Assembly (NCBI GenBank): GCA_949358305.1 | Contig: OX442314.1 | Span: 2,604,001-2,668,000 of the forward strand | Direction of reading: 5' to 3' | Length of the DNA stretch: 64,000 bases | DNA from: Strigamia acuminata | Lineage: Eukaryota | Shown here: piece after piece, positions 725 through 43,103 of the stretch | Numbering within the stretch: the first letter of the stretch is position 1 | Layout of the letters: the number at the start of each line of letters is the position of its first letter | Position numbers and translations under genes: made by a program | Notes under the pieces: generated by a model | Told to the model about the DNA's origin: nothing | Databases searched by the model: none | The model's input: only the letters and a program-made list of their open reading frames with translations

Positions 725-729
725 CATTC

Positions 730-24420: not shown

Positions 24421-25573
24421 TTATAGAGTCCCATTGATATTGATAACTTCACAGCAAAATCATTATATTTTGCAACTCTTTCTTTGGTTTCTTTTGAATT
24501 TTGATTCTCGTTTTTAACTTAACTAGATAAGCTAACAAAATCTGTTTTTTAATGCAAGCCCTGTTTAATATGTCCGAGTAAGTTTCCATCTTTCTCATGA
24601 TCAGTGTTGACAAGTTCGGAATATATTTTCTTGTCTTTGACGATGATGATGTGGTGGATTCCTCGAAAATGCATGGGAAATGTGAAATTCCACTGCACGG
24701 TCCTTTTCGTACGTACGTTCACGTGTTTGCACCCAATATAGAGGAGAATTTGCAAATTTAATAACTCTTCCTTTTGCAGTTTGCAATATTTTAAAAATAT
24801 TCAAATATTTAAATGTTTAAAAATATTTTAGAATGCTGCTTGTTTACAAAACCGATTTATTCTTGTTAATTTCTTTGTATAACGGATTTGAGCTGGACCT
24901 GGGATCATCCCTTGTCGGGAACTGTGTGGGAGAAGCCGATTTTGTAGAATTTAAAAACAATAATTTGGGTTTGTTTTTATAGCGTTTTGTTTGGTTGCAA
25001 AATCAAGAAATATTTATTTATTTATTTATCTCCAACAATACAATATACAATACAAAATGCAATTTTTATTCAATTTAGAAAGTAAAACATTCTTTCTAAA
25101 AAAATTCTGGTCCAAAATATGCAGTGTTTCAACTGTGTTGCGAGATGAAATATATCAGACACTTCGTCGTCTACATTTATAATACATATATTGTCCATTA
25201 AAGCATCTTTGTGCTAAACAAGAAGAAAAAAATAGAAAAAAACTACAGGTGACCCTCAATCTACAAACATCTTATATATAAATATATAAATATATAAATA
25301 TTACTTTAATTTACTTGGTGGTGCAATTTCTGCTTTTTGCCATTTTAATGTACCCTTTTCAATTTTCACTAAGAACACAGTCGGATCAACAGTTGCTAAT
25401 TCGGCCGGTTGTGGTTTCTGTTTTAAAAAACAAAATCTTATATAATGAAATAATTGAAGGAATTTAATTGATGGGACTTTAGTGAGCAAAGTAGGCTTCA
25501 CTTTGTTCTTCATTTTAGTAGATGCGCCTATCGCCGAATCCCACGTTGGATGGTGATCACAGTGATGATGAAC

Positions 25574-25669
25574 GTGTTGTAGTAAAATATGAGATCTATG
25601 AATACGCATTTAAGATGCAATTCTTCATTTCTACCTCAAGGAGGGATTTAAAGGGATGAAGGAGGAAAT
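25574..25669 (+). repeat. Left TIR (96 bp)
   Basis: Reverse complement of 42703-42798 with one mismatch. Confidence 0.9.
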
Positions 25670-25884
25670 GGCCCGATGGTATGAAGATGGATGAATGAAA
25701 AACAAAGAAAGAAAAGACTCAGATGGATTTCAGGAGCATAAAAAAATGATGCTTACCCTTCAATTTTTAAATAAATAAATAAATAAATTATATTAATTTA
25801 TTTAATTTATAAATAAATAAATAACTAATAAATTATATTAATTTAATTAATTAAAATAAATAACTACAAGTAATTCAATTCATT

Positions 25885-26262: not shown

Positions 26263-29200
26263 GTGCTCAGAATGAATAGATACAAATTCAGAAAATGTGT
26301 CGAGTTTTTAAAAGGAAAAAGAAAAAGGGGCGATTTATCTAGGGCTTTCAAGTTTAATGTCGGTTTGGATCAACTTTTGAAGAAATGCGGCGAATATAAA
26401 GATTTTGAGAAGATTATCTCAGTTCCGTATTATCTTCATAAAGGTATCTTTAATGGACAATCGCGCGAGTACATGGTCAATTTCGATGAAAGGATTTGTG
26501 AAATAGAAGATGTGATTAAAGATGCCGCTCCAAATATCCGTGCTTTGGTGGCGGAAGTTGCAGCCGACATGAATTCGTGCAAAGTGAGTGTTATGATGCA
26601 ATTGAGATATCGGCATTCCGTGAAATTGTCGCCAGCTCTTTTTTGGTACCGGGCCGGGCCGTTCGTGATGTTAACGGATGATGTTGATCCAATTTTGGAT
26701 TTGGCTGCGAGGCAACTGGCCGAAGAAAGTGCTGAATATGTAGAAACTCACGACTACTTCTGTTTAGTATGTGTAGAGGCTCTTAAAATTGATTTTGATA
26801 TTTTAAAACAGAAAGGTGAATGGGGCAAAGATGCCATCTTCTTTCCATTGGGTTCGAATATTGATTTATCGGCCGTCATTCGCAATAAGAAAGCGGTTTT
26901 GACTTTTAAAATGGATTTGCGAAAGTCTTTTGTTTGGGCCATTCTTGCATCTTTACATCCGGTAGCTATTAATGCCGAACGCATATCTAATTACTTGAAG
27001 TATGAGCACGAATTGAACTTGCAAGGCTTAGAATTTCCGCTGCCTTACAGAAACCTAGAAAAATTCCAGTCGCAGAATCCCGATATCGAAGTAACTATTT
27101 ATTATTGCAATGGCGATCGCGTGGAAAGATACGTTACCGTTCACAGAAACAGGAAACATCACGTAGATCTATTCTTCTACGGAAAGAATAGCTACGGACT
27201 TGTGAGGGATCCAAAACGGTTGCTGGGTTATTTTCCGTGTCACTACTGCGATAACCAATTCAAGAGCTGCGTGGGAAGAGACAAACATGCGTCGATATTC
27301 CACTCCGTTCCCGAAAAATCGTCGTATCAGGAACTGGACGAATGTCTGCAGAAAAAAAAGGCCGTTGTAAATGTCCAGAACTCGGATCAAAAAAGTTTTT
27401 TATGGTCTGTATTAGCTGCCTTGTATCCAGCCCCCGTTCATGTTTGCAGAGCGGATTATTACGAACAGTTTATGAATAAACTCAATCTCGAAGGGCTAGT
27501 TTTTCCCGTGGGGCCGAAAGAAGTGCTTACGTTCGAAAGACAGAATGTAAGTTTGAACATTAATGTATTCGAGTTGCTGCCCAAGTCCCGCATTGTTCCG
27601 ATTAAAGTAGATATTCTGACGAACCGCCTTATCACTATTAACCTACTGAAGAAACAAAATCATTACATGTGGATCAGGGATTTCTCGCGACTCTTGAGCG
27701 CCGGCAATAAACATAAGCGGTATTATTGCATGAACTGTATGAACGGGTTTTCCAGTGCCATAGTGCTCGTTAGGCATAAACGATACTGCGGGAAATATAA
27801 AGCCTGCAGCACTAAATGTCCCGACGAAGGAGCTATCTGTACGTTCAAAAGTGAGAAAAAAAAATATCCTTTACCGTACGTTTGTTACGCCGATTTCGAG
27901 GCATTCTTAGTACCTGATGCGGAGAGCGAACCCACTTTACATTCGATCATCATTAATTCTCACGAGCCGTGCGGTTATTCGTTTAAAGTAGTGTGCACTG
28001 AGAACGAAGCTTATTCCAGACCGTTACAGCTGTATAGAGGTCCGGATGCCGTCGATCATTTTTTGCAATCGTTGCGTGCGGAAATTAAAGCCGTGGTTCA
28101 GCAATTTTCCGAATTGGAACATAAACAATTCAATTCCAAAACGATGACTTCGCTTCAATGGATCGCTTATAGAAATGCAACAACGTGTTACTTATGCGGT
28201 GATGAATTCTTGGAAGAATTAAAAGGCTTGACAAAAGTCTTGGATCATAACCATTTCACCGGGAAGTTTCGTGGGGCCGCACACGCTAATTGTAACCTCA
28301 ACTACCATTGGCGGAAATCTGTGCCTATAATTTTCCATAATGGAAAAAAGTATGATTTTCATCTAATATTGCCGCATTTGACCGTCGCGTCAGAAAAAGT
28401 GACGATGATCGCCGAAAACTCGGAATTATACAAATCGTTCACGTTGAAAATCAAGACCGGTGATGATCCAAAACAGGTCGTAACGTTAAAATTCATGGAT
28501 AGTTTCCAATTTCTCGCGAGCAGTTTATCCAATTTGGCAAAAAATCTAGAGAAGTCGCAGTTCGCTGTCTTTCGAAGCGAGTTTAAAGGCGAGGAAATTG
28601 ATCTTCTGTTGAGGAAAGGAGTGTACCCTTACAGATATATGACCGGTTGGTCAAAATTTCAAGAAGATAAACTTCCGCCGAAAGAAGAATTTGAGAACAT
28701 AACCGACGACGAATACCAATATGCCCAGTTAGTTTGGAAAACGTTCGGAATTAAAAACATGGGCGAATATCACGATTTGTATCTGAAGACCGACACTCTG
28801 TTGTTGGCGGATATATTCGAACAGTTCAGAAAAATGTGTTTAAATCATTACAAGCTAGACCCCTGTCATTACATCACGTTTCCAAGTCTTTCTTGGGACG
28901 CTGCGCTGCTCATCACCGAAGTTAAATTGGAGCTTCTGTCTGATCCAGATATGTACATGTTTGTCGAACAAGGAATAAGAGGCGGTGTTGCCACTATCAG
29001 TCAACGCTACGCCAAAGCCAATAATCCTCTTCTGGCATCGGGATACGATTGCGAGAAACCAGAGAGTTACATCGTCTATTTGGATGCGAATTCCATGTAT
29101 TCCTGGGCAATGAGCAAACCGCTACCAGTTGGCAAGTTTGCCTTCGACGATAATGTAGCCGAATGGTCACAAGAACGGATTTTAAAAATGGGAGAGAACG

Positions 29201-30288
29201 ATACGATGGGATGCATCTTGGAAGTGGATTTGGGATATCCGCAAGAACTGCATTCGTCCCACAATTGTTTGCCTTTGGCTCCGGAAATGATACGTTCTGG
29301 GGATGACACTTCTCCCAGATTAATCCCGCATTTGCAAGCTCGTTGTAATTACATTCTGCATTACAGAGCTCTGCAATTGTACTTGTCCCTGGGCATGACG
29401 TTGATGAAAATAAAAAGAGTGCTGACGTTTGAGCAAAAACCGTGGCTGGCCAAGTATATCAAATTGAATATTGAGAAACGGAAGTCAGCTACCAGTGATT
29501 TTGAGCAGGAATTGGCGAAATTAGCTAACAATTCGGTCTTTGGAAAAACCTTGCAGGACGTGAGGAAATATAGACAATTTTATCTGGTAAACAATGCAAA
29601 AGACTTGAATACTCACGTCAACCACGTCGGTTTCAAAGGAAAAAAAAAATTAAACAAAAAACTGGTGTTGGTTGAACGGCGAAAGCTGGAATTGACGTTA
29701 GACAAACCTATTTACAGCGGTTTAACTATCCTGGACTTGTCTAAATGCTTGCTCTACGACTTTCATTACAACGTCATGAAAAAAAAATTCTCAGACAAGC
29801 TGAGATTGCTGATGACAGATACGGATAGTTTGATGTACGAAATAGAAGCTCCGTCAGTCTACTCGTTCTTCAGAGAAGAAATACCACAAGTGATGGATCT
29901 GTCTAATTACCACCCACCCGATGGCAGAAACAGGCGTGTCATAGGATGCTTCAAAGACGAGACTGCCGGCGAGCCGATAGAAGAGTTTGTAGGGCTAAGA
30001 GCCAAATGTTACGCTTATAACGTGAACGGGAAAACGAACATGCGATGTAAAGGCATAAAGAAGGCTGTCGTGGAGCAAGAGCTGGACTTGGAGGCGTACA
30101 AGAAGATATTGTTCGGTGAACGGGAGGCCCACAGATTGAAATTTGAAACGATCAAATCAAAACTGCACGATCTCACAACGGTCAAGGTGGACAAATTGGC
30201 ATTGTCGGCGAAAGACAAGAAACGAGTGATATTAGATGATTGTATTCATACTTTGGCTTATGGATACGTAAGCTTGGCGGAGGATTAA
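26263..30288 (+). CDS. pPolB: Protein-primed family B DNA polymerase with duplicated vOTU-like/zinc-finger module and EndoVII-like insert (first ATG 26272)
   Basis: YADFE, FHNGKKYD, DSFQFL, YLKTD, YLDANSMY, KLANNSVFGK, TDTDS; TATA-like tatataaaaa near 26230. Confidence 0.97.
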   Translation: MLRMNRYKFRKCVEFLKGKRKRGDLSRAFKFNVGLDQLLKKCGEYKDFEKIISVPYYLHKGIFNGQSREYMVNFDERICEIEDVIKDAAPNIRALVAEVAADMNSCKVSVMMQLRYRHSVKLSPALFWYRAGPFVMLTDDVDPILDLAARQLAEESAEYVETHDYFCLVCVEALKIDFDILKQKGEWGKDAIFFPLGSNIDLSAVIRNKKAVLTFKMDLRKSFVWAILASLHPVAINAERISNYLKYEHELNLQGLEFPLPYRNLEKFQSQNPDIEVTIYYCNGDRVERYVTVHRNRKHHVDLFFYGKNSYGLVRDPKRLLGYFPCHYCDNQFKSCVGRDKHASIFHSVPEKSSYQELDECLQKKKAVVNVQNSDQKSFLWSVLAALYPAPVHVCRADYYEQFMNKLNLEGLVFPVGPKEVLTFERQNVSLNINVFELLPKSRIVPIKVDILTNRLITINLLKKQNHYMWIRDFSRLLSAGNKHKRYYCMNCMNGFSSAIVLVRHKRYCGKYKACSTKCPDEGAICTFKSEKKKYPLPYVCYADFEAFLVPDAESEPTLHSIIINSHEPCGYSFKVVCTENEAYSRPLQLYRGPDAVDHFLQSLRAEIKAVVQQFSELEHKQFNSKTMTSLQWIAYRNATTCYLCGDEFLEELKGLTKVLDHNHFTGKFRGAAHANCNLNYHWRKSVPIIFHNGKKYDFHLILPHLTVASEKVTMIAENSELYKSFTLKIKTGDDPKQVVTLKFMDSFQFLASSLSNLAKNLEKSQFAVFRSEFKGEEIDLLLRKGVYPYRYMTGWSKFQEDKLPPKEEFENITDDEYQYAQLVWKTFGIKNMGEYHDLYLKTDTLLLADIFEQFRKMCLNHYKLDPCHYITFPSLSWDAALLITEVKLELLSDPDMYMFVEQGIRGGVATISQRYAKANNPLLASGYDCEKPESYIVYLDANSMYSWAMSKPLPVGKFAFDDNVAEWSQERILKMGENDTMGCILEVDLGYPQELHSSHNCLPLAPEMIRSGDDTSPRLIPHLQARCNYILHYRALQLYLSLGMTLMKIKRVLTFEQKPWLAKYIKLNIEKRKSATSDFEQELAKLANNSVFGKTLQDVRKYRQFYLVNNAKDLNTHVNHVGFKGKKKLNKKLVLVERRKLELTLDKPIYSGLTILDLSKCLLYDFHYNVMKKKFSDKLRLLMTDTDSLMYEIEAPSVYSFFREEIPQVMDLSNYHPPDGRNRRVIGCFKDETAGEPIEEFVGLRAKCYAYNVNGKTNMRCKGIKKAVVEQELDLEAYKKILFGEREAHRLKFETIKSKLHDLTTVKVDKLALSAKDKKRVILDDCIHTLAYGYVSLAED

Positions 30289-30304
30289 TATGACGATGGT
30301 TAGT

Positions 30305-31945
30305 TTAATCGTCCCATTTACTACGATCGAATCTGCAATACACGAGGGCGTAAACTTTTATTTCCGGACTCCAATCGGTGACAGTAGATATTCTAATGTG
30401 ATCGTTATCATCAAAATCTACTTTTTTCTCTAAATTGTACGTTCTAAAACATACCGGCATTTTACGTGGTGTTTTTGTAACATCTGTACGTGGAATATGG
30501 AACGTTCGACCATGCCCGTTAATAGACAAGATAAACTCAAACTCGTTAGGTATTACTGTGTATTCTGCTGTAGTAGCATACATGAATAAACTGATTCGCG
30601 TTATATGCCCGTAATGAGGAGTATAAAACTTCCCATTATGTGCAAATAATTTCCATTCTTCGGACACCTTCAAAAACCAATCGGTCCGTTGCGAATGTAG
30701 GAACCCTAGCACTAAATCGGCCTGTTCTTCTACTTCGGGAATATTTAGATTTGATATTTTGTCTTCTAATTCCGTCAATTTCTTATTAACTTCTATTTTG
30801 TTCGCTTCGATGTTAGAATTTAACGTGGCTTCTACCGTATCGACAGTGCCGGCCAAAGCAGCGGGAGCAAAACTTGATTCGTCAACGCTCGGAATTGCGC
30901 TAATTTTTGATATTTCTTCTTGAACGGATGTCAAAATGGACAACATGTTTTCCTGCAACGTTATTATTTGTTCGTTGGCTAATTTGATTTTATCGGTAAC
31001 CTCGTTGACGCTCGTTTGCATTTTATCTGACTTTACGGAATTTTCGTCTACGTACTCGTTTAATTTAAGTTTAGTCTCGTCCAGATCTTTTTGAATGGCA
31101 GTACTGACTGTGTCTAGCTCCGCTTTCGCCGCTTCAATTTTGGTTTTTAAGTCTTCCGTACTTTCGCTACTAACACCAAATTTTGCGGGTAAAGCTTTGA
31201 TTTTGGTTTCCAAGGCTTTAACCTCATTTTCCACACTTTTTTCTAACTTTTTTATATCATCCTGTGCTTGTTTTATCTTGTCATTTGATGCCTCGATGTT
31301 GGTTCTGATTTTGTCCACGTCTAAGTTCTGGATTTTGGTTTCTACTTCATCCAATGCTTCGTTTATTTTTGTATCATAATCGGTTTTATTCTGGATTAAG
31401 CTATTAGTCAACGTCTCCAACCCAGTCTTTAAATCTTCGATCGCAGATTCCAACTCGGATTTAACGTCATTTATCAAGTCTTTGATTTTGATTTCTAATG
31501 CGCTTATTTGTTTTTCGTCAACTTCTACACCACCGGAAGCAGTCGCATTATCTACTAATATCTTAATGTTCGCTTCTAATTCTTTAATTTTCTTAATCAA
31601 ATCTTGTTCCAACGTTCCATATTTTATAGTAGCATAGGCAATATCATTTTTGAGTTTATCAATATCCTTCGTATCAATTCCTTCGCCTTGCCCCGTTAGC
31701 TTACTAGCTTGATCTTGTACGGTACGTTTTAATGCGTTCAAATCGTTAATTATAGAATCGCAAGCAGCTTTCAGGGCATTTTTAGTCTTTGTGATCTCGT
31801 CAAAAATTTTTTTTTCTAGATCGGATAATGCATCGTAACCAACGTGATCTGCGAGAACCTCATCTACTTCTCGACGTTGACGTTTGCCCAATTTATGCAC
31901 TGCGTTAAGACGATAATCGTCTCCTAGTTTATTTACGCTTACCAT
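30305..31945 (-). CDS. Coiled-coil protein with globular C-terminus, putative fibre/spike
   Basis: About 400 aa heptad-rich stalk plus about 130 aa aromatic, beta-like head; last gene of the structural cassette. Confidence 0.55.
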   Translation of the reverse strand: MVSVNKLGDDYRLNAVHKLGKRQRREVDEVLADHVGYDALSDLEKKIFDEITKTKNALKAACDSIINDLNALKRTVQDQASKLTGQGEGIDTKDIDKLKNDIAYATIKYGTLEQDLIKKIKELEANIKILVDNATASGGVEVDEKQISALEIKIKDLINDVKSELESAIEDLKTGLETLTNSLIQNKTDYDTKINEALDEVETKIQNLDVDKIRTNIEASNDKIKQAQDDIKKLEKSVENEVKALETKIKALPAKFGVSSESTEDLKTKIEAAKAELDTVSTAIQKDLDETKLKLNEYVDENSVKSDKMQTSVNEVTDKIKLANEQIITLQENMLSILTSVQEEISKISAIPSVDESSFAPAALAGTVDTVEATLNSNIEANKIEVNKKLTELEDKISNLNIPEVEEQADLVLGFLHSQRTDWFLKVSEEWKLFAHNGKFYTPHYGHITRISLFMYATTAEYTVIPNEFEFILSINGHGRTFHIPRTDVTKTPRKMPVCFRTYNLEKKVDFDDNDHIRISTVTDWSPEIKVYALVYCRFDRSKWDD

Positions 31946-31979
31946 TTTTTTAATAGAAGGGAAAAAAACTATTTTTTAA

Positions 31980-32339
31980 TTATTTTTTTTCTTCTTTCCT
32001 CCATTTTTTTAAAACATATAAGCACAAATGGCCGCAAGTAATTTCGTCAAAATTTTGATACTGATTGTAATTGTATTTTATGTTGTCTCCCAGATAATCG
32101 TATAATTCCAACGGGGGTGGCAAGTCTCCGAAACTATCGAAGTACAGCTTCTTATTTCCAATTTTACTGTATGCCACCCAATGACTTCCGCTTTCGTGGT
32201 GCGTGTTCAAATTAACAATTCCACATTCTTTCGATCGTGGTTTGACGGGTAAAGTATCTCTCGAAAACACTCCTCTAAAAAATGAAATTTTCATTCGTCT
32301 GGCCAGTTCCTCCAACTGCAACGAATCTAGCGGTTTTAT
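31980..32339 (-). CDS. Adenain-like cysteine protease 1 (no ATG at the expected start)
   Basis: FRGVFSRD, VNLN..GSHWV, YFDSFG, Q..CGHLC; frame extends upstream as IKPLDSLQLEE. Confidence 0.9.
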   Translation of the reverse strand: MKPLDSLQLEELARRMKISFFRGVFSRDTLPVKPRSKECGIVNLNTHHESGSHWVAYSKIGNKKLYFDSFGDLPPPLELYDYLGDNIKYNYNQYQNFDEITCGHLCLYVLKKWRKEEKK

Positions 32340-32803
32340 TTTTTTGTCACCAGTGAGCCGTAAGGTTTCAAGTAAAAACCTTTTCCAGACTTGCGTTTCC
32401 GCGATTTTTTTTTTGCGAATTGCATTCCTTTACCTTCTGAAACTGCATTATGACGTTTTGTCTCATCGAGCATTCTCTTGTTGGTTTTTGCCTCATCGAC
32501 AGCTTTGGCAATTCCTGCCGCACCGCCAGCGAGACCGCCTAAAGCCCCCAATAGTGGAAGTAATAAAGGGAAAAATCCGCCAGATTGTTTAATTTGATTC
32601 GAAGGTATACTCAAAGTCATGCCTTTCTTTTTAGAACCGGCTTTTTTGATCTTGTTTATTTGTCTATCCGTAAGAGACAAGCCATGATTGCCGTTTAATT
32701 GTTCGTATTTCAATCTTAAATGCAAGGGTATCTTTTTTTTGACAGACTTGGATATTTTTCGTTGTTGATTCGGAGATAGATTCACTTTATGTATCTTATA
32801 CAT
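32336..32803 (-). CDS. Basic core protein with Gly-rich hydrophobic, possibly membrane-active segment
   Basis: Lys-rich; QSGGFFPLLLPLLGALGGLAGGAAGIAKAV..ETKRHN as seen in Polinton core proteins. Confidence 0.75.
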   Translation of the reverse strand: MYKIHKVNLSPNQQRKISKSVKKKIPLHLRLKYEQLNGNHGLSLTDRQINKIKKAGSKKKGMTLSIPSNQIKQSGGFFPLLLPLLGALGGLAGGAAGIAKAVDEAKTNKRMLDETKRHNAVSEGKGMQFAKKKSRKRKSGKGFYLKPYGSLVTKK

Positions 32804-32809
32804 TTTTAT

Positions 32810-32970
32810 TTCTTTTTTTATATACGTATATATTATTTTATATATATTTATTTATATATATTATATATTATATATTATATATATTATATATATATTATAT
32901 ATATATATATATTATATATATATTATATATTATATATATTTATATATATTTTATATACGTATATATTATT
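32810..32970. repeat. Degenerate (TA)n microsatellite
   Basis: Almost pure A/T alternation. Confidence 0.9.
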
Positions 32971-32977
32971 TTAAAAT

Positions 32978-34297
32978 CTAATATAATACTTCGATTTTAC
33001 CCTTGTCTAATTTCATAGTCATTAGTCTATCGCTTATTATCAAAGCGTAGGCTTTAGTGTCGGCAGGAACGGTTTCCGCAAATTTCATTTTTATTTGCAC
33101 GTCCATTATTCCGGTTTTCATTCTTTCGCTTTGTTTCGTGCAATCTATTACGATGAGCGGGTATATATTTCCGTACTCGTAAGTATTAAACGGTAAATCG
33201 TCGGCACCGTAATAGTCTTTTCTAAATTGAATGCAACTTTCTAAGAATTTACAGAAATTGGCTTTCTTAAAATCATTGTTACTGTCCAGATAAGGATATC
33301 GTTCCGAATTTAAGTAGGCATGAACTTCCGTTACATTGCAGTTATCAAATGTGGCTGGATTTTTTAATTGGTCGTCTCTTTTATTCGTTTGTAAAGCCAC
33401 GATGATGTAACGTGGTTTTTCTGACGTGCTGGTTGTTACCACTCTCCACGCGTGTTCCTTACTTTGTGGCACGTCTGTCATTTCGAACGACCAATGTCGA
33501 AAAGCTAATGGAACGTTCACCCCTCTATCTATGGCAGTGAGTAATCTATTCTTTTGGATATCGGACGGTAAGACGTGCGGCATCAACCAATATAACTGTT
33601 CGATGATAATTTTTCCAACGGGGGTGTTTACTTTTGGGGCGGGACCGGACTGTATCGCTTTAAAAATGGCATCGTTGTCGTGAGTTCGCATTAAGGTCAA
33701 AACTTGTTTGGCACCATATATGATTTTCGTATAGTCTTCGAAAAATCCCATTAAATGTGTTAACGGTACTAACAAAGAGAACGATCCTTTGGGCGTTGGC
33801 ATTATGTTGTAAAATATTCTACGTTCTAGAAAAGCGGGATTAAGAGTATCCGATGCTTCGCCCTTGTGATGATCTACTATCCATCCCATATTTCCGCTCG
33901 AATTTTGGAGCTGTTTGTACGTTAGTAAGCCCTTAATAGTGGTAGCATAACCCGGATAATTTATTTCGTCTATTAATTTATCACCTATGTGATATTTCAT
34001 GTTGCTGAACAAAAATGGCATAAAGTTATTTCCTAACGTTATTATATGGTCTTGTTCATCAGCTTGAGCGATAAGGTCTGTACCATCCGCTTTCACTAAT
34101 CTTCCTGTTATGCAGACGTAACTTTTATGAGGGTGAGTCCATACATCTTCGTTTTGAATGATTAATCGAATTTCGGAATTCACATTATTTAAATTAGTTC
34201 CTATAATAGGATAATATTCGTGGTAGTTGTAGGCATTAACAGATTCATCGACGACGAATGGTTGTTCGACATCCAAATAATTCTCGGAGACTTGCAT
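32978..34297 (-). CDS. Double jelly-roll major capsid protein
   Basis: 439 aa; THPHKSY, LMGFFEDYTKII, EKPRYIIVALQT, LNSERYPY, PLIVIDCTKQ. Confidence 0.92.
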   Translation of the reverse strand: MQVSENYLDVEQPFVVDESVNAYNYHEYYPIIGTNLNNVNSEIRLIIQNEDVWTHPHKSYVCITGRLVKADGTDLIAQADEQDHIITLGNNFMPFLFSNMKYHIGDKLIDEINYPGYATTIKGLLTYKQLQNSSGNMGWIVDHHKGEASDTLNPAFLERRIFYNIMPTPKGSFSLLVPLTHLMGFFEDYTKIIYGAKQVLTLMRTHDNDAIFKAIQSGPAPKVNTPVGKIIIEQLYWLMPHVLPSDIQKNRLLTAIDRGVNVPLAFRHWSFEMTDVPQSKEHAWRVVTTSTSEKPRYIIVALQTNKRDDQLKNPATFDNCNVTEVHAYLNSERYPYLDSNNDFKKANFCKFLESCIQFRKDYYGADDLPFNTYEYGNIYPLIVIDCTKQSERMKTGIMDVQIKMKFAETVPADTKAYALIISDRLMTMKLDKGKIEVLY

Positions 34298-34309
34298 CGT
34301 CGCTATTTT

Positions 34310-34512
34310 TTAATTACTTAATATATATATATTTTTTAAAAAGAATTACTTAATTAATTACTTAATATATATATTTTTTTAAAAAGAATTACTTAATTAA
34401 TTACTTAATATATATATATTTTTTAAAAGAGAATTACTTAATTAATTACTTAATATATATTTTTTTTAAAAAGAATTACGGTATTTAATTAATTACTTAA
34501 TATATATTTTTT
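34310..34512. repeat. About 42-bp AT-rich tandem repeat upstream of the MCP gene
   Basis: taattaattacttaatatatatattttttaaaaagaattac, about 5 copies. Confidence 0.88.
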
Positions 34513-34674
34513 TTAAAAAGAATTTATATATTCTCGATTATCTGGCCGTATCGAAGACTTTATAATTTTTATATTTCCACCTCTAATCGACGAGGGTGTC
34601 TTGACAGTGGCAGTGTTGGAGCTGGTGCTGGGGGTATTACTTGCCGTTACGTTCTTATTAAAAATTAACGGCAT
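34513..34674 (-). CDS. Small 53-aa ORF between penton and MCP (not in ORF track)
   Basis: aaaaacATG context; MPLIFNKN...SIRGGNIKIIKSSIRPDNREYINSF*; begins 10 nt after the penton stop. Confidence 0.55.
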   Translation of the reverse strand: MPLIFNKNVTASNTPSTSSNTATVKTPSSIRGGNIKIIKSSIRPDNREYINSF

Positions 34675-34684
34675 GTTTTTTTAA

Positions 34685-35455
34685 TTACGCTTTAATTAAT
34701 TTTCGTAAGTGTAAACGTGTAGTAAAAATTTCTCCTCTCAGATTCAGTGGTTTATCGTCTTGATCGGTCAACCAGATCCTGACTTCGTGTATTTTAGATT
34801 GATTTTTCACCGGCAAGTAAACTATGTTATACGGCATTTCTACTATTTTGAAGCCTGGCGGGACATTAGGAAAAAATGCGTATATGATCGGAGCCGTCTT
34901 CCCGTTTTTATAAGAGTCGGTAATAAGATCACAATGGACCAGGATAGTGTTAATGTGAAAAATGTTCACCGGATTAATGGATTCGCTTCTACCTACACCG
35001 TATTTCTTTGTTTTGAGACCGAATAATTTAGCCATACTTCTATTTTCCGAAAAATTGGCCCCGTAACTGGCATCGCTAATCACTAATGTCGTGGACAGAG
35101 TATTATAATTGGCCACGATGTCGATGAAAGGTGCGTCGTCTTTCATATTCCAGTGTCCTCTGGATTTCATTTCGGTATGTATGTACGAGATAATGTCGGC
35201 AAGTTCGTAACAACCCACGGGAACGATGATGTCGTAGTTGAGCGTACCTATAATACGAGCGGGGACGTTCACATCTACTTCAACAGTGTAGTATTTGAAC
35301 ACGTTGTTGTCCTCGGTTATATTTGGCATTGTGTAAAATGTCTCGAGGCTCACTAATCCCAATTCGTATTCGTCGTCACCCAAAATTAAAGGTGAGCTAA
35401 AAGTAGTGAGGAAATCCGATTTCGTACTGCTTAGTACGATAGACATGGTAATCAC
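34685..35455 (-). CDS. Minor capsid protein (penton)
   Basis: YELGLVSL, PNITEDNN, VPVGCYE, INTILVHCDLITDSY, PPGFKIVE, DQDDKPLNLRGE. Confidence 0.9.
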   Translation of the reverse strand: MITMSIVLSSTKSDFLTTFSSPLILGDDEYELGLVSLETFYTMPNITEDNNVFKYYTVEVDVNVPARIIGTLNYDIIVPVGCYELADIISYIHTEMKSRGHWNMKDDAPFIDIVANYNTLSTTLVISDASYGANFSENRSMAKLFGLKTKKYGVGRSESINPVNIFHINTILVHCDLITDSYKNGKTAPIIYAFFPNVPPGFKIVEMPYNIVYLPVKNQSKIHEVRIWLTDQDDKPLNLRGEIFTTRLHLRKLIKA

Positions 35456-35473
35456 GATTATTATTACTTTTTT

Positions 35474-36697
35474 TTAATTCGCGAGAATTTTCTTTCGCAT
35501 GTTTTCAAACTTGGTTTTATCGAGGATTCTTTCCTCTTTCAGTTCCATAAGTATTTCCACAATTTCGTTGTCGTGAGACTGGTTTCCAGCATCCCGTGAT
35601 GCATGCAACAATCGCAGCCTGTCTATTAATTCGTCCGGGTTATTGTAATACTTGTAGTCTACGGAGTTGTGCGGCCGAAACGTTTTCGTGACACCTTTGC
35701 CAGCTTGGGGTGTGTTCTTGCCAGCTTGGGATGTTGTCTTTGGACGATTTTTATACAGTTCCCAAATTCGTTTAACCACTGTCATATACTTTTCTCCTTT
35801 ACTAGACTTTGGCATATTAGTTGCCGAATTGTTCTTTTTAAATAACCCTTGACTAGAAATGAGAATCCTGCCGTAATCCACAAAATTTTGGTCTGTCATA
35901 GTTCCTTCAATCGGTGGAAGTTTTTGCATGAGGAGATGCATTAATGTTGGAGTTCGTGGATACTTTACGTTTTTCACAAGTATATGAGTTGGAAAGAATT
36001 TAACTTCTTCGACTCCTATTTTAAATTTTGAATCATACGGGTCATATCTAATTCCAAACACCGTATCTAAATGAGCCGCATTTTCGGCGTAATATTTCAA
36101 GAACTCTTGCTGTACTGCGTTTTCCGATTCTTTGTCCGTCATTTTTAATTCGAGACTTTTTCTTATGTCGCGTTGATATTTTATATTTGGAAGCACATGA
36201 GCAAATTGCCAATCATCATCATCAACATCATCTTCTACGAGGCTCGTCTCTCCCTCTCTTTGAAATGAAACATTTTCCTCTTCATTCCCATCATCCCGGC
36301 CAAACTTAAGTCGAGGAGTTTCAATTTTACTCGAGGACAAGCTTTGGCGACTGAACTGCCTTTTTAAGGATGAACTTTCCCAAGGTAAGAGCGGTGATTC
36401 TAGATCCATTTCGTACTTTAAATTATGGGACTTACTTGTAATGGGTGTGAAAGATGACAACTCTCTTTTAATGGGAGTGGAAGGTGAGGATTTGAAAGTC
36501 GTAGGTGGTAGAGCAAGGGGTGGAGATAGTTGCTGCTGCTGCTGCGGCAGGCTATGCAATGCAGCAGTTACAGGTTTGAAGAATGCACCGAGCGCTTCAT
36601 CTTCGGATCCTCTGTTTAACTTATCTTGCAGAAACTTTTTTTTCAAGCTCTGTTTTAATTTCTCGTAATTTCCACGCTGCTGTTTATTCATGTTCAT
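35474..36697 (-). CDS. Conserved Polinton protein (PZ-like)
   Basis: FKPVT, DTVFGIR, C-terminal YYNNPDELIDRLRLLHASRDAGNQSHDNEIVEILMEL. Confidence 0.75.
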   Translation of the reverse strand: MNMNKQQRGNYEKLKQSLKKKFLQDKLNRGSEDEALGAFFKPVTAALHSLPQQQQQLSPPLALPPTTFKSSPSTPIKRELSSFTPITSKSHNLKYEMDLESPLLPWESSSLKRQFSRQSLSSSKIETPRLKFGRDDGNEEENVSFQREGETSLVEDDVDDDDWQFAHVLPNIKYQRDIRKSLELKMTDKESENAVQQEFLKYYAENAAHLDTVFGIRYDPYDSKFKIGVEEVKFFPTHILVKNVKYPRTPTLMHLLMQKLPPIEGTMTDQNFVDYGRILISSQGLFKKNNSATNMPKSSKGEKYMTVVKRIWELYKNRPKTTSQAGKNTPQAGKGVTKTFRPHNSVDYKYYNNPDELIDRLRLLHASRDAGNQSHDNEIVEILMELKEERILDKTKFENMRKKILAN

Positions 36698-37361
36698 TTT
36701 TTAAAAATGGGGAAAATTTATTTTTATATCTCCCGCTCGACATAGACTTGGTCTTGTCAATGGTGAGAAAGCCAAACGTATCATCATCCCAACACGACTT
36801 ACACATGTCTCTGAATCGAACGTACGTCATGTCCGTTCCAACATGGTTGTCAAAAACGTGTTTCATGTTTCTTTCGTCTTGTCTGAACATGATTATTAAA
36901 TTGGCATTGTCTCTTATCACCTGTTTTGGGATTCGGCTATAAGTCTGACACAAGTAAAAAGAGTCTACGTTACTATGACGGCCCTGGGCAAAATATTTCT
37001 CAATATTATGTTGCTTGTCGGTCATCACATCATCAAACACAAAAATAGACTTGTTCACGGATTTATCAAAAAGTTGTTCGGGAGACGGCACATCCTCGTT
37101 GCTCGGGAAGAAATGAGCTACCTGTTTGCCCAATTCCGATTCTAGATCCTCGAACAACTCTCTTAACCGCTCGTATTTTGGTTGAAATAAAGTTTTAGAA
37201 AACACCATCAGCTTGTCGAACCGTAGCCAATGCAGGAAGTTTAGCAACAGATTCGTTTTCCCACATTCAGCCGGGCCACACATGATGCATCTTATGTTTT
37301 TTGGCAGAATCGACTTATCACATTTATCCAAACGCCCCGTGTCAAAATTTATGACATTCAT
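36684..37361 (-). CDS. A32/FtsK-like packaging ATPase
   Basis: Walker A GPAECGKT, Walker B FVFDD, GRH, IRDNAN. Confidence 0.93.
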   Translation of the reverse strand: MNVINFDTGRLDKCDKSILPKNIRCIMCGPAECGKTNLLLNFLHWLRFDKLMVFSKTLFQPKYERLRELFEDLESELGKQVAHFFPSNEDVPSPEQLFDKSVNKSIFVFDDVMTDKQHNIEKYFAQGRHSNVDSFYLCQTYSRIPKQVIRDNANLIIMFRQDERNMKHVFDNHVGTDMTYVRFRDMCKSCWDDDTFGFLTIDKTKSMSSGRYKNKFSPFLKNEHE

Positions 37362-37397
37362 TTTTTATATTCCCGTAATAAAAAAAAGAAGACAAAC

Positions 37398-37562
37398 ATG
37401 TTTTGCGTTAAATGTAAAAAGTCTACTCCTACCGGCACGTTGGAAATGGGAGTCACTAAAAACAACAGAGCCTACAAAAGAGGTAAATGCTTGGCATGCG
37501 GGACCTTGAAATATCAGTTCATAAAAAAAAAAAATCTCCAGCAACCGGAAAAGGACTTTTGA
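37398..37562 (+). CDS. 54-aa zinc-ribbon protein, DUF5679-like (not in ORF track)
   Basis: MFCVKCKK...KNNR..RGKCLACGTLKYQFI; caaacATG context. Confidence 0.75.
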   Translation: MFCVKCKKSTPTGTLEMGVTKNNRAYKRGKCLACGTLKYQFIKKKNLQQPEKDF

Positions 37563-37891
37563 ATAAACTAATCAATAAATTACCGGTAGAAATGCATATC
37601 CCTGGGTACAATTATTGCGGTCCAGGCACAAAATTAGATAAGCGTTTAGCTAGAGGTGATAAAGGCATAAACCCATTGGATGAAGCGTGCAAGCTGCACG
37701 ACATTGCTTACATAAATGAGAACTTAGAAGCCAGACACGAAGCAGACAGAAAGTTGGTCGAAGCATGTGTTTTAATCATCTCCGATCCAACAGTCAGTTT
37801 AAGCACAAAATTAGCCGCCAAAGCAATCAAAGCAACGTTCAATACCAAACTTAAACTGGGAATGGGACTAAAAAAAAAAAAAAATGCCTGA
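37520..37891 (+). CDS. Parvovirus VP1u-type phospholipase A2 domain protein
   Basis: PGYNYCGPGT calcium loop and NPLDEACKLHDIAY catalytic HD. Confidence 0.9.
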   Translation, partial: HKKKKSPATGKGLLNKLINKLPVEMHIPGYNYCGPGTKLDKRLARGDKGINPLDEACKLHDIAYINENLEARHEADRKLVEACVLIISDPTVSLSTKLAAKAIKATFNTKLKLGMGLKKKKNA

Positions 37892-38837
37892 CATAGAACA
37901 ACTGGTATCTGAATTACATAAGCCGGCACGTAGGCATTACGTCAGACGTCCGGTCGTATCTTTTGCAATCAACGACTTATGGCAGATCGATTTAGTCGAA
38001 TTGATACCTTTTTCCCGTGTAAACAAAGGTTATAAATACTTATTAACGGTTATAGATGCGTTCTCTAAATATGCGTATGCGGTTCCCATCAAATCAAAGA
38101 CTGGCAAAGAGGTAACCGCTGCATTTGAAAAGGTGCTTGTCAAAGCGGGGAATAAGGGGCCGGTCAACATGGCATCCGATTGGGGGAAAGAATTCTACAA
38201 TTCCCATTTCAAGGCACTGGTCAAAAAGTTCAACATCAACCATTTTTCCACACACTCGCCGTTGAAAGCGAGCATGGTCGAGCGGTTCAATCGCACGCTC
38301 AAAGAGCGCATGTACAGGCATTTTACTTTGAAAGGTTCGAGGAATTGGATTACTATCTTACCCCAATTGATGACCCGTTATAACTCTTCGGTTCACCGTA
38401 CGACCAACATGAAACCCAAAGATGTGGCTCCCAAACATGAAAAGGCGCTCAGACTAAAATTACTTCCCGAACCAGCAACGTCCAAGCCTAAATTCAAAGT
38501 GGGCGACCGAGTGCGTATTTCCAAATCCAAATCCATATTTGACAAAGGGTTTTTGCAAAATTGGACTAATGAAATCTTTACAATTGATAAAGTGGACACG
38601 ACGTATGAACCTCCAATTTTCAAATTGAAAGACAGTTTGGGAGAATCGATCGAAGGTTCCTTTTACCGTGAAGAACTCCAAAAAACTGAAACCAGGGTAG
38701 ATGATCCCTACTTGATCGAGAAAGTCATTAGAAAAAAGAAAAACAGCGATGGATCATGGAAGTACCTAGTGAAATGGGTCGGCTACGATCAGAAGCATAA
38801 TTCATGGGTGGATGATCTCATCGACATTAAAAAATGA
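37884..38837 (+). CDS. Retroviral-type integrase with C-terminal chromo-like domain
   Basis: WQIDLV, IDAFSKY, SDWGKEF, VERFNRTLK; IEKVI..YLVKWVGY..NSWV. Confidence 0.96.
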   Translation: MPDIEQLVSELHKPARRHYVRRPVVSFAINDLWQIDLVELIPFSRVNKGYKYLLTVIDAFSKYAYAVPIKSKTGKEVTAAFEKVLVKAGNKGPVNMASDWGKEFYNSHFKALVKKFNINHFSTHSPLKASMVERFNRTLKERMYRHFTLKGSRNWITILPQLMTRYNSSVHRTTNMKPKDVAPKHEKALRLKLLPEPATSKPKFKVGDRVRISKSKSIFDKGFLQNWTNEIFTIDKVDTTYEPPIFKLKDSLGESIEGSFYREELQKTETRVDDPYLIEKVIRKKKNSDGSWKYLVKWVGYDQKHNSWVDDLIDIKK

Positions 38838-39253
38838 ATAACGTGGAAATTTACAACTGGGCGAAGAATAAACTACGTATCGCTCACTTCAACAACGTGT
38901 TGCCCATCGATTGCTTGAAACCGCTCGCGAATCACCGGGGCAAGAATGAAAGCTTCGTCATCAATTTAGACCCATCGACGGGTGGTGGTACCCATTGGGT
39001 CAGCTTGTATCTTTGCAATGACAGAGGCATATACTTTGATAATTTGGGAAACGTTCCACCTAAAGAGATCATTGATTTTGTCGGAAGAGACGTTACCCTA
39101 GATTATGCTACAAAAGAAATGTATTCGTTGACAAAAGAAGATTCTTGCGGGATGTTTTGCCTCTTTGCGCTCTATTTAGCAGCCAATCTTAATCTCAGGC
39201 AGAATACAATCATTAAAATCATTCGAGGAATGAATAATCTTGAGTTGTTGTAA
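38834..39253 (+). CDS. Adenain-like cysteine protease 2
   Basis: INLD..GGTHWV, YFDNLG..PP, CGMFC; ATGA overlap with the integrase stop. Confidence 0.85.
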   Translation: MNNVEIYNWAKNKLRIAHFNNVLPIDCLKPLANHRGKNESFVINLDPSTGGGTHWVSLYLCNDRGIYFDNLGNVPPKEIIDFVGRDVTLDYATKEMYSLTKEDSCGMFCLFALYLAANLNLRQNTIIKIIRGMNNLELL

Positions 39254-39485
39254 AGTAAACCCAATTTCCATTTTTCTCAAAAAAATGAAATTATTTAAGA
39301 AGTTAAAACAATCCTAATTTGAAATCAACAAAGATTCGCACAAAACCTTGCGGAAAGTCTGCAAACAAGCACGGGCATGTGTTAAAGTCCGTGTCAAATC
39401 AAAAATGAAACCGTAACAAAAATTTTCTATATATAAAAAAGCAACATTATTATATTCACTTCAATTTGAGAAAGAAAAGAATTAA

Positions 39486-39767
39486 ATGTATCTCTTTCAA
39501 CTCCAACAGAACAAAACTACCGATGAAAAGAAAATAATTTTGAAACATTTATCCTTATTTTTATTGGTCCATTATGGTGGCTCAATAGATCAGAGAACCG
39601 ATTCGTTACTTTTGTGGCGACCGGCATTTCAGATCAAGATTCAAACTCTGGTGGAGAAACTTGGAAGATTTTCCAGTGAGAATATTGAACACGTCAAATA
39701 CGTACACGACAATGTAACTATCGCCGAAATCCAGGAATTGGCTGAAATAAGTCATTTATTCGGCTAA
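39486..39767 (+). CDS. Hypothetical 93-aa Polinton accessory protein
   Basis: ATG ORF with tatataaaaa box about 55 nt upstream. Confidence 0.55.
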   Translation: MYLFQLQQNKTTDEKKIILKHLSLFLLVHYGGSIDQRTDSLLLWRPAFQIKIQTLVEKLGRFSSENIEHVKYVHDNVTIAEIQELAEISHLFG

Positions 39768-40166
39768 ATGCTACTCTATATATATAATGCGGCATTATGT
39801 AATTAATTATCACAAGTTTTTAAAATAATATTTATATTGTTAATTTTACTGTTTTTTCTCTGAATAAGGAAATAGTCTTTTGATTAATTGGGTGTAATTA
39901 CAAATTATATTTCACATATTAAATCTGGAAATAAAAATGAATATGTGAATAAACACCTGATTTAATTCAAAACACGTGACCATGTAATTATATTAAAGCA
40001 GCGTGACTCATCCGGCAAATGCATAATAAATAAATAAATTTTAAAAAATATAAATAAAATTGCTTTTAAATAAATTTTCAATTAAAAATAAATTAAAAAT
40101 ATAGTATGTAAACATCATTTTAATTAAATTTTCAATTAAAAATAAATTATTTCTCAGCTGAATAAC

Positions 40167-40457
40167 ATGGAATTTTTTTGTGCAACTTATGAAAAAAGTG
40201 AGAAAATATTACTGCAAATAATCTTTGAACTTATAAGTAGATGGGGGGCTGAAATTACAGATATAAATAATTTTGCATTTGTATTTCGCATTGATGGACA
40301 ATTTCCTGAACTAAGCAAAATAATAAAAAGAGCAAGAATAATACATGATTCTCTCAACTCAGAAACAAGAGTACACATAAGGCAGTTGTATCAAATTATT
40401 CCGGGCAAGAAAATTAAGGATATAGATTTTTTTGATGAAGAGAATGAATGTTTATAA
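40167..40457 (+). CDS. Hypothetical 96-aa Polinton accessory protein
   Basis: aacATGG context; open frame within very AT-rich flanks. Confidence 0.55.
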   Translation: MEFFCATYEKSEKILLQIIFELISRWGAEITDINNFAFVFRIDGQFPELSKIIKRARIIHDSLNSETRVHIRQLYQIIPGKKIKDIDFFDEENECL

Positions 40458-40460
40458 AAA

Positions 40461-40637
40461 ATGGAGTTTTATGAACATACTAGAGCATTCTTACGCCATT
40501 CATTTAACAGTGTCTTGTTTAATTGTGACGTATGTAATCATTGCAGTGCCCCCTGTTCTGCTAACTCGTTTGTCAATGTAAAAAAAAATTTTGAAAAACA
40601 AATAAAATGTGTAAAAGAATTTTTAATTAAAAGCTGA
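40461..40637 (+). CDS. Hypothetical 58-aa Cys-rich protein
   Basis: aaaATGG 3 nt after previous stop; CDVCNHCSAPC; AATAAA overlaps the stop. Confidence 0.45.
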   Translation: MEFYEHTRAFLRHSFNSVLFNCDVCNHCSAPCSANSFVNVKKNFEKQIKCVKEFLIKS

Positions 40638-41614: not shown

Positions 41615-41684
41615 TTAATTAAAATAAGAAATAATTGCAAATATAAATACATGAAATAAGAAATAAGTACAAATATAAATATAG

Positions 41685-42270: not shown

Positions 42271-42702
42271 GCAGATTCAACATGTGATCAAACACCCTGA
42301 CCCATACGTGCAATATAGCATTCGACTCACCATCTCGAGACAAACCGTTTAAAATTACCCCCACTTTTAATTTTGCCGTAACCCCCACTTCCAATACCCT
42401 CAGAAAACTTTAAACAATGGCAAATGTTGCCCACTGTCATTGGAAGTCCATACGATTTACCCCCACTTTCACTTTAATTACCTCCCACTTTCCTAAAAAT
42501 GGTTAATATGTGTGATTTTGCCAACAAAGTACATGTAAACAAATCACGTCATTTATTCATTTTCCCTCCAGTAAAATGAAACGTTCCAAAAAAACCAGTT
42601 GTGATAGAAGCAGGTGAAGTCAATGACCTACTTCCTTTTAAAACTCTTTAATTCAAACAGCAGAATAATTTAATGCACTTTCCCATGGCCTTGCCTCGGG
42701 TG

Positions 42703-42798
42703 ATTTCCTCCTTCATCCCTTTAAATCCCTCCTTGAGGTAGAAATCAAGAATTGCATCTTAAATGCGTATTCATAGATCTCATATTTTACTACAACAC
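42703..42798 (-). repeat. Right TIR (96 bp)
   Basis: Reverse complement of 25574-25669. Confidence 0.9.
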
Positions 42799-43103
42799 AC
42801 TCTCAAACACTGCAACTTTTTTCGAACATTTCAGCTTTTTCCGAAATCGCAACCCGATTTCAAACACCCATAAAAAGAAAACCATACACAGGAAACTTCC
42901 CAAACTTTTTTGGCACTTCCTTGACTCACCCCTAAGACACTCACCAAGTTTCAGCACCTCGCACCTTCTGATACTTAAGTAACACACTCTCAAACACTGC
43001 AACTTTTTCTAACACTGCAACTTTTTCCGAAATTGCTACCCGACTTCAAACACCCATAAAAAGAAAACCATACACAGGAAACTTCCCAAACCTTTTTTGG
43101 CAC
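42794..43103. repeat. About 187-bp tandem repeat running into the gap
   Basis: aacacactctcaaacactgcaacttt at 42794 and 42981. Confidence 0.8.

What the first reader, a model, noticed from the sequence alone, without database searches (positions are those of the whole stretch)
31980..39253. Two divergent adenain-like proteases in opposite transcription units
Seen: protease 1 (31980-32339, minus) lies in the capsid cassette; protease 2 (38834-39253, plus) overlaps the integrase stop. Both keep His-Asp-Cys, but protease 2 lacks an obvious oxyanion Gln. Known: Polintons typically have one such protease, and adenoviruses use adenain to process the terminal protein precursor. Inference: division of labour, with protease 2 possibly replacing the inactivated vOTU.
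Basis: partly seen in the sequence, partly recalled or inferred. Interest (0 to 1): 0.72.

Follow-up and report, generated by a model that had tools for sequence, protein, structure and literature searches.

The report
Polinton with second, remodelled protease
A virus-like jumping element carries the usual capsid-maturation protease plus a second, strongly changed one next to its integrase, while both protease domains built into its DNA polymerase lack their cutting residue; the second protease likely took over a job outside capsid building, possibly freeing the polymerase from the DNA ends.

Summary
Observation confirmed, with corrections. The window holds a 17-kb Polinton (alpha-adintovirus type) with two clan CE proteases, 29% identical. 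PRO1 is a typical adenain (His-Asp-Gln-Cys) but has no ATG at the stated start. PRO2 keeps His54-Asp69-Cys105 and the fold (pLDDT 91.6) and has Ser98 at the oxyanion Gln position. This is a lineage trait, not decay: PRO2 and three relatives about 50% identical form a 100/99 branch. Those three are the only 3 of 261 scorable homologs without the Gln, and the only ones with Asn after the catalytic Asp, possibly a substitute amide. The polymerase has not one but two tandem vOTU domains, both with Ser for Cys, behind a degenerate fused TP-like domain. In relatives, 43 of 44 distinct vOTUs keep Cys/His and none of 56 is doubled. None of 96 related loci has two different proteases. The one dead-vOTU relative has a separate TP gene and one protease. 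Replacement of vOTU by PRO2 is the best single reading (about 0.38) but rests on one element; no substrate or activity is shown.

The parts
25560..25676 (.). left terminal inverted repeat region of the Polinton
   Evidence: 117-nt inverted pair with 42696-42812, 92% complementary; no 6-bp target duplication seen by eye
26272..30288 (+). protein-primed family B polymerase, 1338 aa, open frame, polymerase and exonuclease motifs present
   Evidence: PF03175 E 4e-28; motif scan
26272..26844 (+). fused N-terminal TP-like domain, strongly diverged; the loop that reads GS-x-W in most relatives reads T-H-D-Y-F (aa 159-163)
   Evidence: position before vOTU; 3.0 bits on a TP profile of 35 relatives, 2 of 409 scored shuffles as high; hhalign probability 0.4%, E 0.16: weak
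26845..27249 (+). vOTU-like repeat 1, Ser219 at the catalytic Cys position and Ser307 at the His position
27301..27708 (+). vOTU-like repeat 2, Ser375 at the catalytic Cys position, His464 kept; 30% identical to repeat 1, a zinc-finger-like stretch between them
   Evidence: blastp repeat 1 vs 2 E 1e-17
30305..31945 (-). 546-aa coiled-coil protein
   Evidence: only sub-threshold coiled-coil Pfam hits
31980..32339 (-). PRO1, canonical adenain-like maturation protease (H53, D68, Q95, C102); first in-frame ATG only at 32294
   Evidence: 1153 homologs; Gln in 119 of the best 120; tree
32336..32803 (-). basic core / pX-like protein with three Gly-Gly sites, likely PRO1 substrate
   Evidence: Adeno_PX E 0.064; GG at 75, 89, 93
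32978..34297 (-). double jelly-roll major capsid protein
   Evidence: PF21738 E 3e-64
34685..35446 (-). likely minor capsid protein (penton)
   Evidence: conserved in related elements; the name is inferred from size and position, no family hit
35474..36697 (-). 407-aa conserved Polinton protein of unknown function
   Evidence: homologs in related loci
36684..37361 (-). A32-like packaging ATPase
   Evidence: PF04665 E 1e-6
37487..37891 (+). PLA2-like protein
   Evidence: PF08398 E 1e-12
37884..38837 (+). retrovirus-like integrase with chromodomain
   Evidence: rve E 1e-13, Chromo E 2e-7
38834..39253 (+). PRO2, divergent clan CE protease (H54, W55, D69, N70, C105; S98 at the oxyanion Gln position)
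39486..39767 (+). 93-aa orphan ORF, kept behind PRO2 in a diverged sister family
   Evidence: no family hit; contig pieces and joint 38982/39513
40167..40457 (+). 96-aa orphan ORF
   Evidence: no family hit
42696..42812 (.). right terminal inverted repeat region

Best explanation
This Polinton encodes an ordinary adenain (PRO1) and a second clan CE protease (PRO2) of a small conserved lineage with a remodelled active site, and PRO2 likely works outside capsid maturation, most likely by cutting the polymerase's fused N-terminal part in place of the two vOTU domains that lack their catalytic Cys. Shown: two proteases; the PRO2 triad and fold; Gln loss and Asn70 shared by the whole PRO2 branch; two Cys-less vOTU repeats behind a fused TP-like domain. 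Inferred: PRO1 cuts Gly-Gly sites in the core protein; PRO2 is active, with Asn70 (or the branch-invariant Lys101) standing in for the oxyanion Gln; PRO2 is made together with the integrase and releases the 150-kDa polymerase from the 5' ends so that genomes can be packaged or integrated.
For: Two rare traits meet in one element: Cys-less vOTU on a polymerase that still carries its N-terminal domain (43 of 44 distinct related vOTUs keep Cys+His, and the exception has a separate TP gene) and a second, different protease (0 of 96 loci; one protease in each of 7 loci holding pPolB, integrase, ATPase, MCP and penton). PRO2 is under constraint: triad kept in 4 of 4 branch members at 50-63% pairwise identity between subgroups; branch support 100/99; confident CE fold; a 1258-nt contig joins integrase to an unchanged PRO2 protein, and a roughly 80% identical sister family keeps the integrase-PRO2-ORF93 spacing. 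Gln loss and Asn after the catalytic Asp occur only together (3 of 261 and 3 of 271); in a model of poxvirus I7L the oxyanion Gln contacts the residue after the catalytic Asp (PMC10138331). The first 903 residues of pPolB hold no Gly-Gly or [MIL]xGxG, so a canonical adenain has no obvious site there. Integrating pPolB elements should remove TP before integration, mechanism unclear (PMC11161782).
Against: One element only: the contigs of the three PRO2 relatives could not be fetched, so their vOTU state is unknown. A dead vOTU does not need a second protease (L099 family: Cys to Asn, one protease per 17.7-kb unit). The post-integrase slot also holds an ordinary sole protease in L011. PRO2 keeps the Trp after the catalytic His, which in this clan clamps small P1/P2 residues (PMC10138331), yet no GG lies near the TP junction. 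The TP-like domain lacks the linking-Ser motif and barely scores as TP. Bidnavirids have dead vOTU and leave the polymerase uncut (PMC11161782). P0122/P0271 have Phe, not a small residue, at the Gln position, so the amide swap is not reciprocal in all members. The oxyanion loop is the least confident part of the core of the model (block 91-100, pLDDT 78), and no atomic contact was measured. The AU test does not reject PRO1 and PRO2 as sisters (p 0.129). Related polymerases are only about 26-48% identical, so the local clade was not sampled.
Confidence: 0.38

Rival explanations
1. PRO2 is an active, host-directed accessory enzyme (a deconjugase for ubiquitin or a ubiquitin-like modifier, or a cutter of a defence protein). 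It would replace the vOTU's anti-defence role, or be unrelated to it; the polymerase stays uncut or is released by a host enzyme.
For: Nearest folds include bacterial CE deubiquitinases and SUMO/NEDD8 proteases alongside adenain. The Trp clamp for Gly-Gly tails is kept. vOTUs act as deubiquitinases against antiviral defence (PMC11161782). Tyr162 sits beside the lost linking Ser, and Tyr is a known TP linker; host TDP2 removes 5'-phosphotyrosyl adducts (abstract starts).
Against: At 139 aa PRO2 has no extra ubiquitin-like-binding regions seen in the larger hits (sizes; inference). The fold hits are generic to the clan, 10-24% identical.
Confidence: 0.25
2. PRO2 is a weak or non-proteolytic relative (pseudo-protease, substrate trap, regulator of PRO1, or acyl-transfer enzyme) kept for binding.
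For: The oxyanion Gln is present in 258 of 261 scorable homologs and is listed among the four catalytic residues of adenain (PMC4246237). The CE fold also hosts acetyltransferases such as PopP2 and AvrA.
Against: His, Asp and Cys are all kept in 4 of 4 branch members across about 50% divergence; pseudo-enzymes usually lose the nucleophile, as both vOTU repeats here did.
Confidence: 0.17
3. Both enzymes serve virion maturation: PRO2 is the old post-integrase protease kept after a second was gained, now cutting non-GG sites in capsid or entry proteins, or backing up a PRO1 with a defective start.
For: L011 has its sole protease in the same PLA2-integrase-protease slot. PRO1 has no ATG before its conserved first helix. 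MCP, penton, PLA2 and integrase hold no GG site.
Against: PRO2 does not group with the L011 protease. PRO1 is otherwise fully canonical, and its sister P0001 is called from the same Met, so the short or alternative start looks like a lineage trait. Does not explain the dead vOTUs.
Confidence: 0.15
4. PRO2 is a decaying duplicate of PRO1.
For: AU test does not reject a sister relation (p 0.129); long branch.
Against: Open frame, strong A-rich start context like the other genes, only 29% identity to PRO1, triad and private motifs shared with relatives at 50% identity.
Confidence: 0.05

Closest known systems
Alpha adintoviruses / Polintons-Mavericks of animals (Starrett et al. 2021, PMC8502044, passages; Barreat and Katzourakis 2021, PMC8097293, passages)
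   Same: PF03175 pPolB with N-terminal OTU-like region, rve integrase, packaging ATPase, DJR capsid, PLA2, pX-like protein, adenain, terminal inverted repeats.
   Different: Two non-identical proteases instead of one; OTU region doubled and Cys-less; PLA2 and pX-like parts are separate genes.
TP-vOTU-pPolB architecture and its variants (Krupovic et al. 2024, PMC11161782, passages and sections 6-7)
   Same: TP-like domain followed by vOTU before the polymerase; vOTU inactivation is known.
   Different: The paper reports Cys/His conserved in polintons and inactivation in adenovirids (TP separate) and bidnavirids (TP fused, no cleavage, no integrase). Here an integrase-bearing polinton has fused N-terminus plus two dead vOTUs plus an extra protease.
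Adenovirus adenain (MEROPS C5) and clan CE relatives ASFV pS273R, poxvirus I7L, SENP/NEDP1, SseL (PMC4246237, PMC10138331, passages)
   Same: His-acid-Cys order, fold, Trp after His; adenain processes pre-terminal protein.
   Different: PRO2 lacks the Gln seven residues before Cys and has Asn after the catalytic Asp; in adenovirus one enzyme does both jobs.
Butterfly polintons with two adenain copies inside 2-kb TIRs (bioRxiv 10.1101/2025.02.07.637071, passages)
   Same: Two adenain genes per element.
   Different: There the copies come from the inverted repeat; here they are 29% identical and outside the TIRs.
Nematode Mavericks with cargo proteases (Widen et al.; seen as search listing, and as cited in PMC11131425)
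   Same: An extra protease carried by a Maverick.
   Different: Those are described as nematode genes taken up as cargo; PRO2 belongs to the element's own adenain-like family.

Membership tests
Polinton/Maverick (alpha adintovirus type) | protein-primed PolB of PF03175 type | tested here: met
Polinton/Maverick (alpha adintovirus type) | rve integrase, ATPase, DJR major capsid protein, adenain | tested here: met
Polinton/Maverick (alpha adintovirus type) | terminal inverted repeats | tested here: met
   pair I1
Polinton/Maverick (alpha adintovirus type) | 6-bp target site duplication | tested here: not met
   none seen by eye at the repeat ends; may be a rearranged insertion
Polinton/Maverick (alpha adintovirus type) | single vOTU with catalytic Cys and His in pPolB | tested here: not met
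   two repeats, Ser219 and Ser375
Polinton/Maverick (alpha adintovirus type) | fused TP domain with Ser or Tyr linking residue near Gly/Pro | tested here: inconclusive
   weak profile score; Asp161 at the Ser position, Tyr162 beside it, no Gly/Pro
Adenain-like protease (C5), PRO1 | His-Asp/Glu-Cys triad and oxyanion Gln | tested here: met
Adenain-like protease (C5), PRO1 | full-length translation including the first helix | tested here: inconclusive
   first in-frame ATG lies after it
Clan CE protease, PRO2 | clan CE fold | tested here: met
   AF2 model pLDDT 91.6 built on 135 homologs; Foldseek probability 1.0 to SseL, adenain, NEDP1
Clan CE protease, PRO2 | His-Asp-Cys triad | tested here: met
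   H54, D69, C105
Clan CE protease, PRO2 | oxyanion-hole Gln | tested here: not met
   Ser98; also absent in its three relatives
Clan CE protease, PRO2 | proteolytic activity and substrate | not testable with these tools
   needs an assay
Adenovirus-like split TP plus dead vOTU | TP as a separate gene | tested here: not met
   a TP profile that finds the separate TP of the L099 family (E about 1e-4 to 1e-5) finds no TP ORF in window 25001-43000

The most novel reading that the evidence does not exclude
An integrating Polinton lineage outsourced release of its genome-linked polymerase to a dedicated second adenain. That enzyme rebuilt its oxyanion hole by moving the amide from the usual Gln to an Asn beside the catalytic Asp, and the freed vOTU doubled into a pair of catalytically dead ubiquitin-binding or docking modules: a third solution to the terminal-protein problem besides adenoviral splitting and bidnaviral non-cleavage.
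Probability: 0.25. Interest if true: 0.8.

Novelty: new variant of a known kind. Interest (0 to 1): 0.58.

Why it matters
How Polintons free their genome ends from the fused primer-polymerase before integration is stated as unresolved (PMC11161782), and vOTU self-cleavage is itself a hypothesis. An element with near-identical, deeply covered copies, two dead vOTUs and an extra protease is a natural test case. PRO2 is also a small, confidently folded clan CE enzyme without the near-invariant oxyanion Gln, which can be assayed directly. I found no report of two divergent adenains or of a doubled vOTU in the searches; supplements (annotated adintovirus maps of PMC8502044, SI figures of PMC11161782) were not read and could hold such cases.

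Tried and rejected
No whole genome is held. Word-index protein search found no PRO2 relative and none for pPolB 190-520; the exhaustive search did for PRO2. Single-protein locus scans with PRO1 and PRO2 in viral contigs gave nothing. Scans with the PRO2-branch alignment gave only canonical proteases of other elements (17 loci) or nothing, so no PRO2-branch locus with neighbours was obtained. A degenerate DNA pattern for the PRO2 motif gave 15 loci, none with a protease; these 15 are left out of the count of 96. The single-sequence fold of the vOTU region failed (pLDDT 32) and is not used. No RNA holder was listed. Reads were laid only on 34700-39770, so it is open whether the PRO1 start and the vOTU serines are shared by other copies. 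A -1 frameshift from the core gene into PRO1 was considered: the A-run is there, but the RNA behind it folds no better than shuffles (-20.6 vs -19.0 +/- 3.1 kcal/mol), so it stays unsupported. NCBIfam gave nothing useful. ESM Atlas placed PRO2 with Peptidase_C5 clusters (0.97-0.98) and gave only unnamed, mostly arthropod clusters for the pPolB N-terminus (0.91). No complex prediction was run (enzyme-substrate pair). Earlier-finding look-ups by sequence and place were blank.
Full report
1. The element. ORFs between about 26.3 and 40.5 kb lie inside a 117-nt inverted repeat pair, 25560-25676 and 42696-42812. Pfam finds a PF03175 polymerase, DJR capsid protein, A32-like ATPase, PLA2, and rve integrase with chromodomain. 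This is a Polinton of the alpha-adintovirus type (PMC8502044, passages). The flanks hold LTR-retrotransposon pol genes. An animal, probably arthropod, host is inferred from this and from weak Atlas taxa; it is not shown.

2. The observation. Both proteases exist at the stated places. They are 29% identical. PRO1 has H53, D68, Q95, C102. Of its 1153 homologs, the best 120 were aligned: 119 have the Gln. PRO1 has no ATG at 32339; the first in-frame ATG is at 32294, after a stretch that is conserved in homologs. Its closest relative P0001 is called from the same Met. PRO2 starts in an ATGA overlap with the integrase stop and has H54, W55, D69, C105. Ser98 stands seven residues before the Cys, where adenain has Gln115 (PMC4246237, passages); MAFFT put the Gln column on neighbouring Tyr97 in one alignment, and neither residue is Gln.

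3. PRO2 is a lineage, not a ruin. The exhaustive search gave 1963 hits, best 150 listed. The top two, P0121 and P0122, and P0122's cluster mate P0271 are 50-53% identical to PRO2; P0121 and P0271 share 62 of 98 aligned residues. P0121 and P0122 carry the same run accession, so they are not independent for host. In a tree of 76 rows (both window proteins, 16 locus proteases, 25 of 37 dereplicated PRO1 homologs, 33 PRO2 hits; 129 columns) the four form a 100/99 branch outside the 41-row group that holds PRO1 and the insect-type adenains. The AU test does not reject PRO1+P0001 and the PRO2 branch as one clade (p 0.129), so duplication versus capture is open. Of 271 fetched homologs, 261 could be scored (10 lacked the anchor motifs); 258 have Gln 6-9 residues before the Cys, and the three without are P0121, P0122 and P0271. 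The same three are the only ones of 271 with Asn after the catalytic Asp. These sets are best hits, not a random sample. In an AlphaFold model of poxvirus I7L, Gln322 contacts Ser259, the residue after catalytic Asp258 (PMC10138331, passages). Asn70 may therefore supply the missing amide; this is inference, no contact was measured, and P0122/P0271 have Phe at the Gln position. The PRO2 model is confident (pLDDT 91.6, pTM 0.86) and matches SseL, adenain, NEDP1, I7L and pS273R; the family profile hits pS273R and adenain at about 1e-12.

4. Copies. Three runs of one organism code hold 75-84% of the region's words (one may be the window's source). On 34700-39770 a 1258-nt contig runs from integrase through PRO2 with two differences, the one inside PRO2 at a third codon position; another listed difference alters residue 96. 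No listed change hits residues 54, 69, 70, 98 or 105, but 324 difference rows and 11 indel rows were not shown. A diverged contig in two runs aligns at 38712-38982 (50 differences) and again from 39513 with 517 letters in place of 530, so integrase, PRO2 and the 93-aa ORF keep their spacing in a sister family. Depths are in the thousands, but the tool warns that they are not copy numbers.

5. The polymerase N-terminus. It holds two vOTU-like repeats, 30% identical. Both have Ser at the catalytic Cys (219, 375); repeat 1 also has Ser for His. From loci fetched with protease and polymerase queries, 56 full vOTU domains were read (partial hits in L012, L051 and L102 dropped), 44 distinct at 80%. 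Of these, 43 have Cys+His and one has Asn; none of the 56 ORFs has two. This agrees with PMC11161782 (passages), which reports the residues conserved in polintons. In front lies a domain in the TP position that scores only 3.0 bits on a TP profile (2 of 409 scored shuffles as high) and 0.4% by hhalign. By eye 41 of 43 fused relatives have Ser in the linking loop; the window has T-H-D-Y-F, and L060 has a similar Tyr. Tyr is a known linker (section 6). The junction to vOTU carries a 12-residue insertion, and the x-L-x-G-[GS] text common in relatives is shortened. No GG or [MIL]xGxG (adenain consensus, recalled) occurs before residue 904, while the core protein has three GG sites. No separate TP ORF was found in the element.

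6. Is a second protease routine, and is it tied to vOTU loss? None of 96 loci (L001-L030, L046-L111; many are fragments, some overlap) has two different proteases. Seven that hold pPolB, integrase, ATPase, MCP and penton (L002, L004, L007, L011, L047, L078, L081) have one each. L099 has two near-identical hits 17.7 kb apart, from tandem copies. That family is a control: vOTU Cys to Asn, TP in its own gene with an intact linking motif, one adenain per unit. So vOTU loss alone does not call for a second protease; it does so at most when the N-terminal domain stays fused. L011 has its only, canonical protease right after the integrase, so the slot is not special. The related polymerases are only about 26-48% identical, so the window's own clade is unsampled.

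7. Mechanism. PRO1 is likely the virion maturation enzyme. For PRO2 I favour release of the polymerase from the genome ends in place of vOTU (0.38), because two traits each absent from dozens of relatives meet here and the element must deal with its 5' protein before integration. Rivals: host-directed deconjugase with an uncut or host-released polymerase (0.25; TDP2 seen only as abstract starts), non-catalytic or weak partner (0.17), second virion protease (0.15), decay (0.05).

8. Literature. Passages read in PMC8097293, bioRxiv 10.1101/2023.08.22.554363, PMC11131425 and bioRxiv 10.64898/2026.10.13.758929 speak of one maturation protease or do not address number. Two adenain copies are reported only through gene-containing TIRs (bioRxiv 10.1101/2025.02.07.637071). 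Searches showed no report of two divergent adenains, a Gln-less adenain branch, or a doubled vOTU; supplements were not read. Earlier AI notes describe other Polintons with dead vOTU and split TP; they are leads only.

9. Verdict. Real, conserved and unusual: a new variant of a known kind of element. The division of labour is plausible and directly testable, but not shown.

Noticed in passing
window 26845-27708: Tandem duplication of the vOTU domain in pPolB, both copies with Ser for the catalytic Cys; no doubled vOTU in 56 related ORFs. Could be a ubiquitin-binding or docking pair.
   Followed up: partly
window 32294-32345: PRO1's conserved first helix lies before its first ATG and overlaps the A-rich end of the core gene in the -1 frame. 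In L001 and L006 PLA2, pX-like and protease regions are one open frame. A non-ATG start or a core-protease fusion is possible; no stimulatory RNA structure was seen.
   Followed up: partly
L091-L103 (for example L099:8712-10564): A tandemly repeated 17.7-kb Polinton-like family on contigs binned in a bacterial MAG: separate TP gene with an N-terminal zinc finger, vOTU with Asn for Cys, split polymerase, two capsid-like genes in a row, TFIIB-like and TBP-like ORFs by eye. The same bin has 49 adenain-like matches, so it looks like a bin of eukaryotic viral elements.
   Followed up: partly
L011:7063-8983: Same divergent ATPase / PLA2-integrase-protease layout as the window, with a single canonical protease.
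   Followed up: yes
window 25572-25583 and 42789-42804: Element ends read TGTAGT...ACTACA, one base off the AGTAGT motif of vertebrate Mavericks; no target duplication seen; both ends abut other repeats.
   Followed up: partly
window 25806-26189 and 41621-42261: Subterminal tandem arrays of 64-nt (left) and 32-nt (right) units, and a 106-nt-arm hairpin at 41408-41621.
   Followed up: no
window 39486-39767, 40167-40457, about 40461-40617: Three small orphan ORFs after PRO2; the last has Cys pairs; the first is kept in a sister family.
   Followed up: partly
window 80-4800 and 49597-54388: Two LTR retrotransposons; the second has identical 171-nt terminal repeats and an open 1361-aa frame, so it is a recent insertion.
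   Followed up: no
window 6244-9009: 921-aa GC-rich ORF without a Pfam hit.
   Followed up: no
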